DNA of 64,000 nucleotides from Tubiluchus corallicola (Eukaryota; Animalia; Priapulida): assembly GCA_030141605.1 (NCBI GenBank), contig JAQGDQ010000447.1, positions 129,231 through 193,230 of the forward strand, given 5' to 3'. The notes under the pieces are model-generated. The model was not told the origin of the DNA and ran no database searches. It saw only the letters and a list, made by a program, of their open reading frames with translations. Positions within the stretch are counted from its first letter, which is position 1. Each line of letters starts with the position of its first letter. Made by a program: the position numbers and the translations under genes. Shown here piece after piece: positions 10,883-64,000 of the stretch.

Positions 10883-11418
10883 TATATTAGGCTAATTACG
10901 TTGGATTCCAATACTTATTGTGTTGCACTGATGTATCGCGTCGTTTTCGTGGTTGTTGTTTGCAGTTATTTATCTGTGTGCTTGCATATTTGTTTTATTG
11001 ATAAAACTTCACGCACCTCTCATGTTTCTTGTTGTTGTGTGGCAAATGATTGTCCTCCTAAGAATGGCTAAGCAATGCTTTCACCGTGCTCGTTTCGGTA
11101 TCAGCTGAATAAGCATTAACAGAGTTTGTTGTTTGCAATTCTTCAATTTTGCTGTTTATGTGTTTGTACACACGATGTCTATTGACACGAAATTGCTCCA
11201 TCAGCATCCATTAGGGTACGTAATTTATACATTATGAAATGCATAACGTAGTTAGCTATATAGCCTCCAGTATATGTAGAGTGACTAAGCTGCTCAGTTA
11301 GAATATATTCTGGTTATGCAAAGCTTTATGTGAAAATAAACACGAGAACTTAGATTCAGAAAATTGATGGAAGTAAAAAAAGCTTGAATTCACTATATGC
11401 AAAATTCTCTGATATGTA

Positions 11419-12323
11419 ATGGAATCTCGGAATGAAAGCCAAGCAGAAGTAGTTGTGACGTTACACGGCTTAGTAATTCCAGCTGCACACATAACTGCAG
11501 TGTTTATAGAACTTTCTAATCTGCTAGTTATTGTGGCACTTGTGAAATATAAGCACCTGGAAGAATTCAAAAACTGGTACATATGCAGCTTAGCAGTTGC
11601 TGATTTGTTGACGGGAATACTGGCACATATTTTTACGTATGAACAGTCAAAGATTTACCAGCCTATACCAAGACACAAGTGCTTATTGCTAATATACCTC
11701 TCTCTTGTCTTTGGTATTCAATCAACAATAATGTTGTTAGCAGTTACAATAGACAGATATATTGTGATAGTTTATCCAATGCGATATGATCAATTAGTAA
11801 AGAAATGGATGGTGCAACTTACTCTTGCTGCTTCATGGATGTTCTCTTTTGGCATAAGCATTTCAATTTACTACAAAGACAGACCATCGGTTTATTGTTT
11901 TTTATGTATGTAGCCAGCTTGGAAATAATCACGCTAGTTTCCACTTTTTTCTGCATAAACGTAGTTCTCCTGCTTGCCATCAATACTAGCATCATGTTTA
12001 TTGCTCGAAGACACATGAGCAGAATTGAACCAAATGCTCGGAGATCGTACAAACGTAATTTAAAATCTGCCAAGGTAATTAGTTTGGTGGTTGGTACTTA
12101 CATCGTCTGCTTGCTTCCTTTCATTGTGCTTATCCTGACTGGTGTCCTCCAGAGTGGAATCACTATTCCTCCTTTTATTTTTTCACTCACCTTCCTCTTG
12201 TTTTACTGTAATTCATTTATGAATCCAATAATTTATGCCTGGAAAAATCAAGAGCTTCGAGCATCCTTCAAGAAAGTTCTTCAATGGGAAAAACACATAG
12301 GTCGCAAAACGTCAGTCAACTAG
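11419..12323 (+). pseudogene. Intronless class A (rhodopsin-family) GPCR, about 301 aa, with a 1-bp frameshift (pseudogene or sequencing error)
   Basis: SNLLVI (TM1), SLAVADLL (TM2), TIDRY..YPMRY (TM3), ASW (TM4), CLLPF (TM6), NSFMNPIIYAW (TM7). The two ORFs join if one T is added to the T6 run at 11898-11903. Confidence 0.9.
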
Positions 12324-13569: not shown

Positions 13570-13835
13570 TTTCTGGTTAGTGAGTGATGCACCCTGAAGG
13601 TCAACGACACTTTACCAATTGGTGAAAACATTTTAAATAATCAATAATTTTCTTTTCTGGTTACATAAGTCTTTCAAGCAGGTAAGCGAAATTGTAAGTA
13701 ATATGACTTTGCACGGAAAGTTTTTTAAGACATAGTTTAACATTTCCGTTTCTTCCCCTGATTTACGTTGTGCGTATATGACGTCATGTAGTGGCGCAGT
13801 CGGAACAGTAAAATCCTTTCAACGCGAGTGCAAAA
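13570..13835 (+). mobile_element. Unclassified dispersed repeat family C
   Basis: Clearly similar to 18490-18780, and more weakly to 38900-39110 and to 62110-62850, which is split by a family A MITE. Confidence 0.6.
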
Positions 13836-24140: not shown

Positions 24141-24609
24141 AAATTGGGCAGTGTACATCTACAGTGTAAAATGGCAATATGCATACTCTTTCCTCCATGT
24201 GAAATTTTCGAAGTTTATTGTTTACACTAATCCAATCCAATCCATCACAATACACGTGAGTCAAAAACACTTTCACGTGTTTGTTGTCTGGCAGTAAAAA
24301 GCTTATAGCGCTGTCTCTGAATTTGTCTAGTGTGCGTGCCTGCTAATAAACCTGTAATTACTCTTATACAAAAGACGAAAGCAGGGATTTGTACATGCTG
24401 CTAACACGAAAATGCTAACATGGAACCTATCTAGTTCTAACAAAAATACAACCACAGATCAATATGTATGACGCCATTAAAAGGTTTATATAAGTTCGTT
24501 ACTGTTATGTTATCAATCTTGCTACTTTTTATTAGAAGGTGCTATATATAGGTATATAAAAATTTCTAATTATAATGTATATTTTATGTGTGTAGAACTA
24601 ACCTAATAA

Positions 24610-25365
24610 ATGATGATGATGATGTTCGTCCTTCGAATCGAAGATGGCCATAGTGACAGGGATAAAAGGTCAGTTTGGGGGGGGGTGTCATTCCTTTGAT
24701 GAGCTCGAAGGTGACTGATTAGGCCAATTCTGACCTGGAAACTTCTTTGGCATTTGGCACAGGCGAGGCTGGGTGTTTGGACCTGTTGTTGGGCAGTGTC
24801 ACATGCCTTGCGTCTCCTGCGCTTCTCCTCTGCCTCCTCAATTCTTTTCGCCTCTGCTGTCTTAGCCCCTGTGGTGATGGCACTCCGCCATGCTGAGCGA
24901 TCTTGTGCAAGGGTTTCCACTGAGCGAATAGCCATGCTGAGCTCCTTGAGTGAGTCCTTCAAGCTGTCTTTGAAGCATTTCTCTGGTCGTCCAACCTTTC
25001 TCTTTCTAGACACAAGTTCTCCATAGAGCATCTTCTTTGGTATGCGGTTGTCTGGCATGCGAATCACATGTCCTGCCCACCGTGTTTTAAGGAGGAGTGT
25101 ATGGATGCTGGGGAGGTCAGCTCTTTTAAGTACCTCTGTGTCTGGCACCTTGTCCTGCCACTTGATGTGCAGGATTTTCCTCAGACAGCCCGTGTGAAAG
25201 TAGTTAAGCTGTTTTACGTGTCTCCTATATAATGTCCAGGATTCACTGGCATAGAGGAGAGTGGTGATGACGACAGCTCTATACAACTTCAATTTTCTTA
25301 TGGTTCTGATGCCTTTCCTGTCCCATACGTTGGAGTGGAGTCTTCCAAATGAACCACTAGCCTTA
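24610..25365 (-). mobile_element. RTE-BovB-like LINE, 5'-truncated 3' end
   Basis: KASGSFGRL...TTLLYASESWT...RWAGHVIRMPDNRIPKKMLYGEL...AQDRSAWR...CAKCQRSFQVRIGLISHLRAH, followed by an (ATC)n tail. Confidence 0.92.
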
Positions 25366-25725
25366 AAAAATAATAAATATATAACCTAATGAATATTACA
25401 TGCATAAAACACTATCGTCCGCATATGACATATTGTAATTTTCTGCCCGCTTTTTTTCGCGGTAAATTTTTTAACACTTTACCTCAACTGTCAGCCAAGG
25501 TGTATCACGTAATTGATTTTTCTGGAATTTTCTCTCCAGCTAATGTATTTAAAGAAACTTGGTGTGTTACTTATATAAATGAGAATTTTGCATGTTTACA
25601 TACGATTCTCCTTCACAATTTTCAATCCATGTTAAATAATAAACATTGGTGAATAATGCCCATGCACCTTTCTACGTCTTCTTTGCTTTTCAATAATAAA
25701 AGTCGATTAATTCGACCACCCACAT

Positions 25726-36951: not shown

Positions 36952-37954
36952 TGTGACTTAGGTAAGTCAAATGTAGACATAGGAATTTCGAATGTGTTTT
37001 GGTAACTCAAATGTGACTTGGGTAAGTCAAATGTAGACATAGGAATTTCGAATGTGTTTTGGTAAATCAAATGTGACTTAGGTAAGTCAAATGTAGACAT
37101 AGGAATTTCGAATGTGTTTTGGCAACTCAAATGTGACTTAGGTAAGTCAAATGTAGACATGGGAATTTCGAATGTGTTTTGGTAAATCAAATGTGACTTA
37201 GGTAAGTCAAATGTAGACATAGGAATTTCGAATGTGTTTTGGCAACTCAAATGTGACTTAGGTAAGTCAAATGTAGACATGGGAATTTCGAATGTGTTTT
37301 GCCAACTCAAATGTGACTTAGGTAAGTCAAATGTAGACATGGGAATTTCGAATGTGTTTTGGTAAATCAAATGTGACTTAGGTAAGTCAAATGTAGACAT
37401 GGGAATTTCGAATGTGTTTTGGTAAATCAAATGTGACTTAGGTAAGTCAAATGTAGACATGGGAATTTCGAATGTGTTTTGGTAAATCAAATGTGACTTA
37501 GGTAAGTCAAATGTAGACATAGGAATTTCGAATGTGTTTTGGTAACTCAAATGTGACTTAGGTAAGTCAAATGTAGATATAGGAATTTCGAATGTATTTT
37601 GGTAAATCAAATGTGACTTAAGTAAGTCAAATGTAGATGCATTACTTTGAATAAATCGGTAATTAATTCATTTAAGTGAAAAAACAAAAATATAAAACCA
37701 AATAAAAATTATATTTTATGGTCATGGTGCTATCGGCAGCATCAATTTTGATTATATTTAATTAATTTGCAACTATTTGTATGGACGTTAATAAATTTTC
37801 CAAATGTAAAGAAAATGTTTATTTGATAAGAATACTTAAAAGTGTTGTACATAAATAAGTTAACAATTGACTTGACATGTATCTACATTTGACTTACCAA
37901 AAAAGCTTAAGATTTTTGAAAACCATTGTTAACACTTTTGAACTACCTGAGTCT
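36952..37954 (+). mobile_element. Truncated MITE family A copy with a 60-bp tandem array (about 11 units, 36952-37638)
   Basis: The unit TGTGACTTAGGTAAGTCAAATGTAGACATAGGAATTTCGAATGTGTTTTGGTAACTCAAA is the family A subterminal repeat. Confidence 0.9.
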
Positions 37955-53475: not shown

Positions 53476-54354
53476 CTAAGCGGATCTGCCCAGTCTACTT
53501 TGCCCGAAACACCATTTCCTGGTGGCAAATAAGTAAGCGCAAGTCAAGATGATAAAAAGAAAACCACCCATCGCACCCGCAAGTGCCAGGTCTATTTTTA
53601 AAATGTCACCACTAAAAGCTTTTGGGTTGACGTTAACTCGAATCTGCTCTGACACGTCATTACCAAGGTAATTTTCAGCAGTACAAAAGTAGATGCCTCT
53701 ATCATCGCTGCGTACTGAGGAAATTTGAAGTGTTTTCTCTCTGTGAACAACACTTCCTAGAACAATTTTCCACTCAAAAAACGGTTCAGGATTGGCGTCT
53801 ACGTGGCAAGTGAGTTCTAATGAACGAAACTCATTCACAGTAACAATCTTTTCCTTAGGAGCAAAAACCACCGGTGGATATGTTACATTTAATTCGATTG
53901 AAATCGAATGATTTCTTGCTACTTGCAGCAACACCGCTGTCAGTCTAGTTCTGTGATCAGCTTTTCGCAGAGGTGGAATACTAACTGTACTTTCTGCAAG
54001 CTTCTCTTGGCCGTTGTAGCTGAAATTATACGAAGTTAATTCCACTGGCTTCTCTACTTCATTGTAAGGATAATTTAAACGATACCACTTAATATCACTT
54101 CTACTCGGAGGAGGTTCAGGACTTTCAAAAACACCTTTCAAGTAGAAATTCTTTCCAATCTCCTCAATCACTTGACGTCTATTTATTAGAACTATTCCGC
54201 TTGAGGTAATGAAATACTTTTTATGCAAGGATATCAAGAAAGACGTTTCACAAAGCAAATAACCAAAAGCTACTGATAAACCCACGAAACGCAACATGTT
54301 ATCCATGCTTGCGTGTTGATGTGAAAAACAGAACAATAGAATCGCGTTGGTCAT
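53476..54354 (-). CDS. Intronless type I membrane protein with two Ig-superfamily domains
   Basis: Hydrophobic N-terminal signal (likely start near 54306). I-set-like domain LELTCHVDANPEP..W..LQISSVRSDDRGIYFCTAENYLG. An upstream Ig-like domain ends LNVTYPP. TM segment LALAGAMGGFLFIILTCAYLF, then a short tail. Confidence 0.88.
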   Translation of the reverse strand: MTNAILLFCFSHQHASMDNMLRFVGLSVAFGYLLCETSFLISLHKKYFITSSGIVLINRRQVIEEIGKNFYLKGVFESPEPPPSRSDIKWYRLNYPYNEVEKPVELTSYNFSYNGQEKLAESTVSIPPLRKADHRTRLTAVLLQVARNHSISIELNVTYPPVVFAPKEKIVTVNEFRSLELTCHVDANPEPFFEWKIVLGSVVHREKTLQISSVRSDDRGIYFCTAENYLGNDVSEQIRVNVNPKAFSGDILKIDLALAGAMGGFLFIILTCAYLFATRKWCFGQSRLGRSA

Positions 54355-54527
54355 GATTGTTATCTACAGTGGCCTGTTTTCTACTTCCATTTTTGTACGT
54401 ATCTTCGAGTTTTTCATGACTTCGAACCGCACAATGTTAAAACCTGTAGAACCAATTGTTGACTTTTTCTATTATTCTAATGATCCTACATAGTAAACGA
54501 ATAATTATACTTCCAAAAAGTTTCAAT

Positions 54528-62193: not shown

Positions 62194-62684
62194 GGTTTTA
62201 CATGTCAAATGCAGACCTGCTTAACTCAAATGTAGATTTAGGTAATTCAAATGTGTCTTGGTAACTCAAATGTAGACTTAGGTAGTTCAAATGTGTTAAC
62301 AATGGTTTTCAACAAATCTTGAGCGCTTTTGGTAAGTCAAATGTAGACACATGTCAAGTCAAATGTGACATTGGTATCTCAAATGTGGATAGGTGGTAAA
62401 GTTTAAGGATGTTAAATTTAATCTTCTTTAATTTCAATTTAATAATTGCCCTTAAGTTAAAATAACAACGTTATAGGCCTACTAATAGATGCACTATCTT
62501 TGGTTTATCTTTTTCTAATTTGCACTTAAATGAGTTAATTACCGATTTATTCAAAGTAATGCATCTACATTTGACTTATCTAAGTCACATTTGAGTTACC
62601 AAAACACATTCGAAATTCCTATGTCTACATTTGACTTACCTAAGTCACATTTGAACTTTCCTGTGTCTACATTTGACGTGTAAA
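62194..62684 (-). mobile_element. MITE family A inserted in a family C repeat
   Basis: One TIR is intact and the other is truncated. Confidence 0.88.
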
Positions 62685-63123
62685 TTATTAATTATTATCT
62701 TTAAATTTAAGTTCATTTCACACCATATAAAAAGTAAACAATGTACATTGTTTTTTTCTTATCACATAAATCTTTCAAACAGTTAAGCCTAATGCTAACT
62801 AATATAACTTTGTGCAGAAGTTTTTTTGAGACATAGTTTAAAATTCCCCATAAAGTAGGCGTCTTTGTGGAAAGAGCAATGTGGGTTTTTTCGTTTCCTG
62901 CGGGTGTATCGTAAGTCAATATTCACCTTACATTTATATACTTTTTTAACAAACAAAGTAAAATTTCTTGAAGAAAATTGCAACCGTTGACCTAAAACAT
63001 TTGGATTTTTTTCATATTTGATGAAAATCTGAAAGGAACTATTGTACCAGTAAGCTGTGCTATTTTCCATACCTTCTTCAGGGACTTCAAGAGTTTTAGC
63101 GGTCAGTCCAAGGGCAGGCCGGG

Positions 63124-63593
63124 TGTCGTGTAGTTTGGGCTTCCCGATTCACCCGCCGTAAAGAAGCCATTGTGAATTAATTTACGTATAGCTGTAGGAA
63201 CTGGTTCGAGGAGTTAACCTAGTTAAAATAGGAAGTTAGTTGTACAGTTGATATGGAAAAGTCACCACGACAATTGGTGATGAAACCCGGGATTGAACCA
63301 GGGACCTTTAGATCCGTTTATTAGAAAGCATTTCAAGTGCAAAATAAAGACTATTTGTCGTGGTGACTTTTGCGACGACAGTAAAACAAAAACGAGAACT
63401 TTTCCTTCTGCCATAACGCTAATTTTCTTTTTCGAAAGCGCAATATACAGGTTTTCTGTTCCATCTCAACTCAACAACTAACTTCCTATTTTAACTAGGT
63501 TAACTCCTCAAACCAGTTCCTACAGCTATACGTAAATTAATTCACAATGGCTTCTTTACAGCGGGTGAATCGTGAAGCCCAAACTTCACGACA
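63124..63593. mobile_element. Inverted-LTR retroelement with extended tRNA-Phe PBS and 5-bp TSD
   Basis: LTR1 at 63124-63272 (+) and LTR2 at 63356-63593 (-), each TGTCGTG...CACGACA. CCGGG flanks both outer ends. Confidence 0.8.
63275..63314 (-). other. Reverse-transcribed 3' half of mature tRNA-Phe(GAA) including CCA (extended primer-binding site; not a tRNA gene)
   Basis: Minus strand GATCTAAAGGTCCCTGGTTCAATCCCGGGTTTCATCACCA versus metazoan tRNA-Phe positions 37-76 GATCTAAAGGTCCCTGGTTCRATCCCGGGTTTCGGCACCA, recalled from memory. Confidence 0.88.
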
Positions 63594-64000
63594 CCGGGTA
63601 TCTTGCATTGAGAAAATGTCTCACAGTTCATGAGTGATGAGGCAGGGCTGCATTTTGTTGAAAAATCACGGTGCTCAAGATTTCCATAGAACTTCAGTTG
63701 GTGATCGAAAGACCTCATGCCAGGCTGATTCTGCACCTCATGCTACAGTCGTCACCATTACAATGGGGATTCCAAATAAAAAAAATAAAAAGAATTGCTA
63801 AAGGCTCCTCTTGATCCTTGCAGTTTTCTTGTTGAATTTGGAGGAAAATTTAAAAGGAAATTAGAAAACACAGCGCGCAGCGACTTTTGAGACACCCTGT
63901 ATAAGTTCCACATATATTTTCTGTACATGATTCCTGTGCCATTACGAAGCAAAATATGGAAAAAATGCTGGAAGACAACATGGAATCACCAGAACAAAAT

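What the first reader, a model, noticed from the sequence alone, without database searches (positions are those of the whole stretch)
63119..63598. 470-bp retroelement with two LTRs in inverted orientation, integrated as one unit
Seen: two copies of the same short LTR (TGTCGTG...AAAAGTCACCACGACA, 4 mismatches in the first ~120 bp) point towards each other across an 83-bp spacer. The left copy has an ~89-bp internal deletion. CCGGG is duplicated on both outer flanks, and removing the unit plus one CCGGG rejoins the host mariner remnant (..LNARYP|AC..). Established: LTR elements and TRIMs have direct LTRs, and their integrases make 4-6 bp TSDs at TG...CA ends. Inference: an integrase accepted a fold-back cDNA with two U3-type ends. 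This is either a one-off aberrant product or a non-autonomous family that looks like a MITE but moves as a retroelement.
Basis: partly seen in the sequence, partly recalled or inferred. Interest (0 to 1): 0.82.

Follow-up and report, generated by a model that had tools for sequence, protein, structure and literature searches.

The report
Retrotransposon fragment with two left ends
A 470-base insertion holds the start of a common retrotransposon (terminal repeat, tRNA-Phe primer site, short leader) joined to a second, back-to-front terminal repeat under one 5-base insertion scar; it is likely a copying accident that the element's integrase inserted by two identical left ends, and one partly seen contig suggests a second such unit in this genome.

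Summary
Observation confirmed: arms of 149 and 238 nt face each other across 83 nt, the left lacks 89 nt, and CCGGG flanks both sides. Relatives of the host transposon cross the site with the 31 letters expected of an empty site. The arm is a real, highly repeated LTR with variable flanks at both ends. The whole spacer is the parent family's primer site plus leader, cut exactly at the inverted arm's U5 end. Its tRNA-Phe complement is 40 nt long and stops at tRNA position 37/38. One contig from another locus also has two outward-facing U3 ends with a tRNA piece between; its scar was not visible. Best reading (0.5): an aberrant cDNA with two U3 ends, integrated in one step. Main rival (0.27): nested inverted insertion, then deletion through the LTR's 7-bp terminal repeat. 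A mobile MITE-like family is not shown (0.12). No listed contig bridges the inner or right junction, and no gag-pol parent was reachable. The scan has noted similar two-U3 insertions in other genomes (unchecked notes).

The parts
63119..63123 (.). left copy of the 5-bp target-site duplication CCGGG
   Evidence: host relatives hold one near-copy at this place (table 5c); X2 and X3 contigs read T at 63119
63124..63272 (+). 5'-type LTR, U3 end outward, with an 89-nt internal deletion (LTR positions 134-222; breakpoint can slide 2 nt)
   Evidence: left junction bridged in X1, X2, X3
63273..63274 (+). 2-nt gap between the LTR end and the primer site
63275..63314 (+). primer-binding site extended to 40 nt: complement of mature tRNA-Phe(GAA) from the CCA end to position 37; most family depth differs at 63314, so there it ends at position 38
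   Evidence: Rfam tRNA model 36-71, 5'-truncated, 18 bits, E=0.041, below the gathering score; 34 of 37 identical to positions 37-73 of an ARAGORN tRNA-Phe gene in L002, 0 of 7 over positions 30-36; 63314 C>G in 2311 of 2599 depth in X1
63315..63355 (+). first 41 nt of the parent family's leader behind the tRNA complement; the parent also matches the T at 63356 and then goes on into other sequence
   Evidence: 5 listed contigs in X2, X3, X4 cover 63257/8-63356 whole with 6-10 other letters and 4 gaps; two X3 contigs hold 538 and 599 further letters beyond 63356
63356..63593 (-). full-length 238-nt LTR, inverted; U5 terminus exactly at the inner junction, U3 end outward
   Evidence: variable loose flanks at 63355/63356 (8+8 X1 contigs, agreement about 0.5) and at 63593 (7 X1 contigs, agreement 0.5)
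63594..63598 (.). right copy of the 5-bp duplication CCGGG
63599..63902 (-). host DNA-transposon remnant, upstream part: TIR-like end with TA at 63885-63902 and a decayed transposase fragment ending ..FLNARYP; Tc1/mariner type by recalled motif
   Evidence: best phmmer hit P0001 carries the matching motif in tandem; Pfam gave no family; repeated in reads
63041..63118 (-). host remnant, downstream part, continuing in register (PACPWTDR); left limit approximate
   Evidence: contigs of relatives join 63041 or 63093 to 63598-63600

Best explanation
The unit is the 5' LTR, primer site and first leader bases of a repeated LTR element joined to the U5 terminus of a second, inverted LTR, and it was likely made as one aberrant cDNA with two U3 ends that the element's integrase likely inserted in a single step, leaving the 5-bp duplication. 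Shown: the anatomy, the family membership of arms and spacer, the empty site in host relatives. Inferred: inside the particle a plus strand that had passed the second transfer and stalled at leader base 83/84 was joined tail to tail to a free LTR-only plus strand ending at the U5 CA; each then served as the other's template, giving a duplex blunt at two U3 ends. An integrase-made joint (one-ended autointegration into the leader) is a variant that gives the same sequence. The 89-nt deletion and some substitutions likely came later or from slippage. With no polypurine tract or 3' direct LTR the unit is predicted to be a dead end for retrotransposition.
For: Both outer ends stop exactly at the U3 terminus, inside one 5-bp duplication, and host relatives show the empty site at the exact length. 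The inner joint falls exactly on a natural LTR terminus and shares 1 nt with the parent leader (63356), 2 nt if the base after CA is counted. X1 record 4 (721 nt, depth 169.8; its 63313>63515 joint also in X2) has two arms ending at the U3 terminus and facing outward, with tRNA-complement 63283-63313 between them and flanks that do not match the window: a second such unit needs two rare steps again under the nesting rival but one under this reading. Template switches that yield complex LTR elements inside one TSD are published for direct LTRs (PMC1950507, abstract and passages). Plus strands ending at the modified base 37 of the primer are a known minor HIV-1 product (PMC13191261, section 10), so this family's enzyme history includes irregular plus-strand ends (inference).
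Against: A joint exactly on the U5 CA is also what an ordinary nested insertion leaves. The arms differ at 7 of 133 sites, about as much as other family contigs differ from the right arm (2-6 in 73-105 nt among listed X1 pieces), so a common origin in one reaction is not shown; two of the differences are CpG-type changes on the right arm and one is absent from the X2 and X3 contigs. The overlap at the joint is only T or TT, whereas RT clamping in vitro needed 2 nt with at least one C or G (PMC3035444, abstract). Record 4's duplication and 210 of its 411 nt were not visible, and it could be a nest or two neighbouring insertions. No listed contig bridges the inner or right junction. The parent's integrase was not found.
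Confidence: 0.5

Rival explanations
1. Two ordinary steps in the chromosome: a second copy of the family inserted backwards into the leader of the first, 83 nt behind its 5' LTR; later a deletion ran from the U3 end of the inverted LTR to the U5 end of the first element's 3' LTR, using the 7-bp sequence that both ends share, which left the original CCGGG in place.
For: Each LTR end carries the same perfect 7-bp inverted repeat, so on the + strand an inverted LTR and a direct 3' LTR end in the same seven letters. The inner joint is a clean U5 terminus, as integrase makes. The family is abundant (summed X1 depth about 5,000-37,000 over the arm against 100-200 on unique flanks; not a copy number). 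Arms about 5% apart fit two separate copies.
Against: Needs two rare events; homologous recombination between the LTRs alone cannot bring a U3 end next to the right duplication (reasoning). A second outward-facing U3 pair at another locus (record 4) would need both events again. No intermediate was seen among listed contigs.
Confidence: 0.27
2. The unit belongs to a mobile non-autonomous family whose inverted LTRs serve as terminal inverted repeats, moved by a Ginger-like integrase/transposase or re-copied by the parent's enzymes.
For: Termini fit Ginger1's TGTNR pattern and the target contains CCGG, Ginger1's preferred site (PMC2836005, passages). The same paper proposes that Ginger1 TIRs came from two LTRs in opposite orientation. 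A second inverted unit exists, and its one arm is identical to this right arm over 91 nt.
Against: The duplication is 5 bp, not Ginger1's 4. The second unit differs in length and inner sequence. The U5 end has many different flanks, as solo and 3' LTRs do, and the parent leader continues past 63356 in other copies. No high-depth contig across the inner junction was listed, as a multi-copy unit would give. The variants shared with record 4 (63510, 63560) are CpG-type and can recur.
Confidence: 0.12
3. Assembly artefact: a fold-back read or a collapse of a longer repeat region.
For: No listed contig bridges the deletion joint, inner junction or right junction.
Against: The arms differ by 7 substitutions and 89 nt, both ends stop at exact LTR termini inside a duplication, host relatives confirm the register, and the left junction stands in runs of two studies.
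Confidence: 0.05
4. Two different cDNAs each gave one U3 end to a single integration complex, and host repair joined their trimmed inner ends.
For: Explains two U3 ends, one duplication and non-identical arms.
Against: Repair after trimming has no reason to stop exactly at the U5 terminus, and the right arm is not followed by a primer site as a 5' LTR would be.
Confidence: 0.06

Closest known systems
tRNA-primed LTR retrotransposons (Ty3/Gypsy, BEL or Copia; superfamily not determined) and their solo LTRs and TRIMs
   Same: TG...CA ends with short inverted repeats (PMC3601003, passages), primer site 2 nt behind the LTR, 5-bp duplication, free LTR ends with variable flanks
   Different: LTRs inverted, both U3 ends outward, no polypurine tract, tRNA complement of 39-40 nt where 18 is usual, no AATAAA or ATTAAA in the LTR
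Template-switch complex LTR elements of Triticeae (PMC1950507; abstract and passages)
   Same: An abnormal reverse-transcription product integrated as one unit with a normal 5-bp duplication
   Different: Those have three LTRs around two internal regions, and the word 'inverted' does not occur in that text; here two inverted LTRs and no coding region
Ginger1 DNA transposons (PMC2836005; passages)
   Same: TGTNR inverted termini of 40-270 bp, GC-rich target containing CCGG; proposed origin from two LTRs in opposite orientation
   Different: 4-bp duplication and a transposase there; 5 bp and no gene here; the arms here are whole LTRs that also occur free; no sign of excision or of multiple copies
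HIV-1 plus-strand read-through product P5 and the lentiviral primer over-extension sequence (PMC13191261; section 10)
   Same: tRNA copy that ends at the modified base 37; wybutosine sits at 37 in tRNA-Phe(GAA)
   Different: P5 is described as unable to serve as a template, and the over-extension sequence goes with stops at position 55; here the copy to 38 is fixed in a multi-copy family
DIRS-1 retrotransposons (search listing only)
   Same: Inverted terminal repeats on a retroelement
   Different: Tyrosine recombinase, and no duplication or tRNA primer site (recalled); this unit has integrase-type ends, a duplication and a primer site

Membership tests
LTR of a tRNA-primed LTR retrotransposon (the arm) | TG...CA ends with short inverted repeats | tested here: met
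   7-bp perfect repeat in both arms
LTR of a tRNA-primed LTR retrotransposon (the arm) | Primer site complementary to a tRNA 3' end just behind the 5' LTR | tested here: met
   an undeleted arm joined to the primer site in X1 and X2 (joint 63297/63355)
LTR of a tRNA-primed LTR retrotransposon (the arm) | Dispersed copies with sharp ends and variable flanks | tested here: met
   loose ends at 63355/63356 and 63593 in X1 and X3, agreement 0.48-0.65
LTR of a tRNA-primed LTR retrotransposon (the arm) | Direct LTR pair around gag-pol, polypurine tract before the 3' LTR | not testable with these tools
   no genome held; contig letters beyond 30 nt are not returned; collection scans found no relative
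LTR of a tRNA-primed LTR retrotransposon (the arm) | Polyadenylation signal inside the LTR | tested here: inconclusive
   no AATAAA or ATTAAA on either strand of the 238-nt arm; the U3/U5 orientation rests on the primer site
TRIM / intact LTR element (the unit) | Two LTRs in direct orientation | tested here: not met
TRIM / intact LTR element (the unit) | Polypurine tract before an LTR | tested here: not met
   both U3 ends abut host DNA
TRIM / intact LTR element (the unit) | 4-6-bp target-site duplication | tested here: met
   CCGGG on both sides, single in host relatives
Ginger1 | Terminal inverted repeats starting TGTNR | tested here: met
   both ends start TGTCG; pattern from PMC2836005
Ginger1 | 4-bp duplication CCGG or CCGT | tested here: not met
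   5-bp CCGGG; no symmetric 4-bp reading fits
Ginger1 | Integrase-like transposase, or a cognate autonomous partner | not testable with these tools
   none in the unit; no genome to search
MITE-like mobile family | Several loci with the same structure and different duplications | tested here: inconclusive
   none in the window; one differently built inverted unit, duplication unseen; lists cut
DIRS | Tyrosine-recombinase element without duplication or tRNA primer site (recalled) | tested here: not met
   duplication and primer site present

The most novel reading that the evidence does not exclude
This LTR family repeatedly throws off units with two U3 ends, and some are mobilised again as DNA elements: the LTR-to-TIR conversion proposed for the origin of Ginger1, caught in progress, in a family whose 39-nt tRNA-Phe complement is a fixed record of reverse transcriptase stopping at the modified base 37.
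Probability: 0.12. Interest if true: 0.8.

Novelty: new variant of a known kind. Interest (0 to 1): 0.5.

Why it matters
If right, an LTR integrase in an animal germ line can insert a cDNA by two U3 ends, which turns LTRs into terminal inverted repeats in one step. That is a direct route for the step that Bao et al. (PMC2836005) called unclear in the origin of Ginger1, and it can be tested by counting such units in one assembly. I found no paper describing such insertions in five full-text searches (0, 0, 2, 0 and 13 papers listed, only titles and abstract openings seen; subscription journals are mostly not held). Unchecked scan notes report the same layout in several other genomes, so this may be a recurring by-product and not a rarity. 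This copy alone is predicted to be dead. Separately, the parent family's long tRNA complement can show where reverse transcriptase stops on this animal's tRNA-Phe.

Tried and rejected
Metagenome scans: 0 hits for the LTR-end/primer-site pattern; 1 hit for an LTR pattern, a chance 22-nt match. Prokaryote genomes: 0 hits. Viral contigs: 20 loci with a 16-nt match, none extending beyond 28 nt. No RNA holder listed; no evidence either way. ARAGORN found no tRNA gene in the window, and Rfam on 62800-64000 gave only chance-level hits. My first idea, that the tRNA piece was copied afresh here and joined through GATC to flanking genomic DNA, was rejected: other copies carry the tRNA piece and the next 42 nt together. 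My recollection that Ginger1 elements keep tRNA relics was not confirmed: 'tRNA' occurs 0 times in PMC2836005 and PMC6839031 and not in that sense in the passages of PMC4455052 and PMC5753468; searches gave nothing on it. Two independent solo LTRs were rejected: there is no inner duplication, and the spacer is element sequence, not host sequence. The host fragment got no Pfam family and no hit in the word-indexed search; two of the three phmmer hits (P0002, P0003) are unrelated repeat proteins. Papers on Ty1 strong-stop DNA and autointegration were not held, so what I say about free LTR-only plus strands and autointegration is recalled. PMC8599865 (passages) concerns stops at positions 58 and 54 and was not used. 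Folding gave the expected long hairpin (-167 kcal/mol), which adds nothing. No supplementary files were consulted.

Full report
What is there. The window looks like animal DNA (about 36% GC, long microsatellites, a rhodopsin-type receptor gene and an immunoglobulin-domain frame). No whole genome is held. At 63124-63593 two copies of one repeat face each other: 149 nt on + and 238 nt on -, 83 nt apart, with CCGGG directly outside both. The arms differ at 7 of the first 133 positions, the left lacks 89 nt, and the last 16 nt are identical. Each arm begins and ends with a perfect 7-bp inverted repeat. No third copy lies in the window.

One insertion into a host transposon. The right flank reads on the minus strand as a decayed transposase fragment ending FLNARYP, and the left flank goes on as PACPWTDR (each side translated alone). 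A TIR-like end with TA lies at 63885-63902. The Tc1/mariner label is recalled from the motif; Pfam gave no family and the only relevant phmmer hit, P0001, is an unnamed protein with the same motif in tandem. Contigs of related host copies in X1 and X2 (one sample) join 63093 to 63600 with 31 letters between, the length expected after removing the unit and one CCGGG; by eye 20 of the 31 match, with a single near-copy of the target. Another relative has 30 letters where 29 are expected. The left junction is bridged in X1 with no difference in 181 nt, and in X2 and X3 with 5 differences each; X3 is from a second study. No listed contig bridges the deletion joint, the inner junction or the right junction. 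Both lists were cut and the tool filters records, so this is a gap in the evidence, not a result against.

The arm is a real LTR. Summed contig depth over the right arm in X1 is about 5,000-37,000 against 100-200 on unique flanks; the tool warns that this is no copy number, but the repeat is clearly abundant. Its inner end has different flanks in 8+8 X1 contigs and 3 X3 contigs, and its outer end in 7 X1 and 2 X3 contigs, with agreement 0.48-0.65 (12 of 54 loose-end rows shown). An undeleted arm is joined to the primer site in X1 and X2. That is the pattern of solo, 5' and 3' LTRs, and it fixes the orientation: both outer ends of the unit are U3 ends. No AATAAA was found in the arm, and no coding parent could be reached.

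The spacer is the parent's primer site and leader. Two bases behind the left LTR begins a 40-nt complement of mature tRNA-Phe(GAA), CCA included. Rfam places it at model positions 36-71 below the gathering score; it matches positions 37-73 of an ARAGORN-called tRNA-Phe gene in L002 at 34 of 37 and positions 30-36 at 0 of 7. The organism's own tRNA was not seen. Most family depth has another letter at 63314 (2311 of 2599 in X1), so the complement usually ends at position 38, next to the base that carries wybutosine in tRNA-Phe (PMC13191261, passages). HIV-1 makes a minor plus strand that stops at modified base 37 of its primer (same paper, section 10). Five listed contigs from X2, X3 and X4 cover 63257/8-63356 in one piece with 6-10 other letters and 4 gaps, and two X3 contigs hold 538 and 599 letters beyond it. 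So the long complement and the next 42 nt are fixed in a multi-copy family, and the window's copy is cut at leader base 83/84, exactly where the inverted LTR's U5 terminus begins. I infer that the long complement is a fossil read-through or an extended primer contact; which one is untested.

A second inverted unit. Two U3 ends thus face outward around about 411 nt at another locus. Its duplication and 210 inner letters were not visible. It is one contig from one sample.

How it likely arose. Any model must give two U3 ends inside one duplication and a joint on the U5 terminus. Best reading (0.5): a stalled plus strand (LTR, primer site, 83 nt) and an LTR-only plus strand were joined tail to tail in the particle, filled in, and integrated; an integrase-made joint is a variant. 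Free LTR-only plus strands and integration by two like ends are recalled, not read here. Abnormal template switches that integrate with a normal duplication are published for direct LTRs (PMC1950507). Against it: the overlap is only T or TT, weaker than the in vitro clamp rule (PMC3035444, abstract), and the arms are no closer to each other than to other family copies. Main rival (0.27): a nested inverted insertion, then a deletion between the two identical 7-bp ends; it uses ordinary steps but needs two, and twice over if record 4 is the same kind. A mobile Ginger- or MITE-like family (0.12) has the TGTNR ends and the CCGG-containing target for it (PMC2836005), and the 5-bp duplication, free LTR ends and lack of a second identical unit against it. 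Two-donor integration with host repair (0.06) and artefact (0.05) fit poorly. Before reading the scan's notes I put nesting at 45% and aberrant cDNA at 35%; the notes moved the order. They are unchecked and are not counted as evidence, which is why the best reading stays at 0.5.

Novelty and verdict. The unit is not a TRIM (LTRs inverted, no polypurine tract), not Ginger1 (5-bp duplication, no transposase) and not DIRS. It works like an integrated mis-copy of an LTR retrotransposon. Five full-text searches listed no paper whose title or abstract opening describes such insertions; I did not open the 15 papers listed, and most subscription journals are not held. The scan has noted similar units in other genomes. 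New variant of a known kind; interest 0.5.

Noticed in passing
run X2, contig joint 63313 back to 63282 (table 5c): One contig (depth 6.95) holds the tRNA-Phe complement twice in tandem, 33 letters apart, the first copy ending at tRNA position 38: a repeated primer-site-like unit or a tRNA-derived tandem repeat.
   Followed up: no
window 62201-62677 and 36952-37637: A fold-back-like element with two inward-facing arrays of a 20-nt sub-repeat; by eye its right arm matches the 60-bp unit of an 11.4-copy tandem array at 36952-37637, so satellite and fold-back element share one repeat.
   Followed up: partly
window 62735-62850: A very abundant short repeat (X1 depth about 30,000 at 62744-62831) with diverged copies at 13634, 18572 and 38970; probably the end of another DNA transposon.
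   Followed up: no
window 11413-12323 (+): An intronless rhodopsin-type receptor gene lies in two overlapping frames, both matching 7tm_1 (profile 2-122 and 153-260): a frameshifted pseudogene or a sequencing error.
   Followed up: partly
window 53476-54363 (-): Open frame of 295 codons with an immunoglobulin domain followed by a hydrophobic stretch.
   Followed up: partly
window 24603-25385 (-): A 260-codon frame resembling the 3' end of an RTE-type LINE (recalled), with a weak C2H2 finger hit.
   Followed up: no
run contigs over 63257-63356: At least two subfamilies carry the long tRNA complement with indels inside its first 23 nt, and some have a different LTR middle (joint 63257/63549), so the primer site does not look freshly reset from one tRNA in all copies.
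   Followed up: no
L002:265-337: A 5-kb contig in the viral collection holds a eukaryote-type tRNA-Phe gene; possibly host DNA.
   Followed up: no
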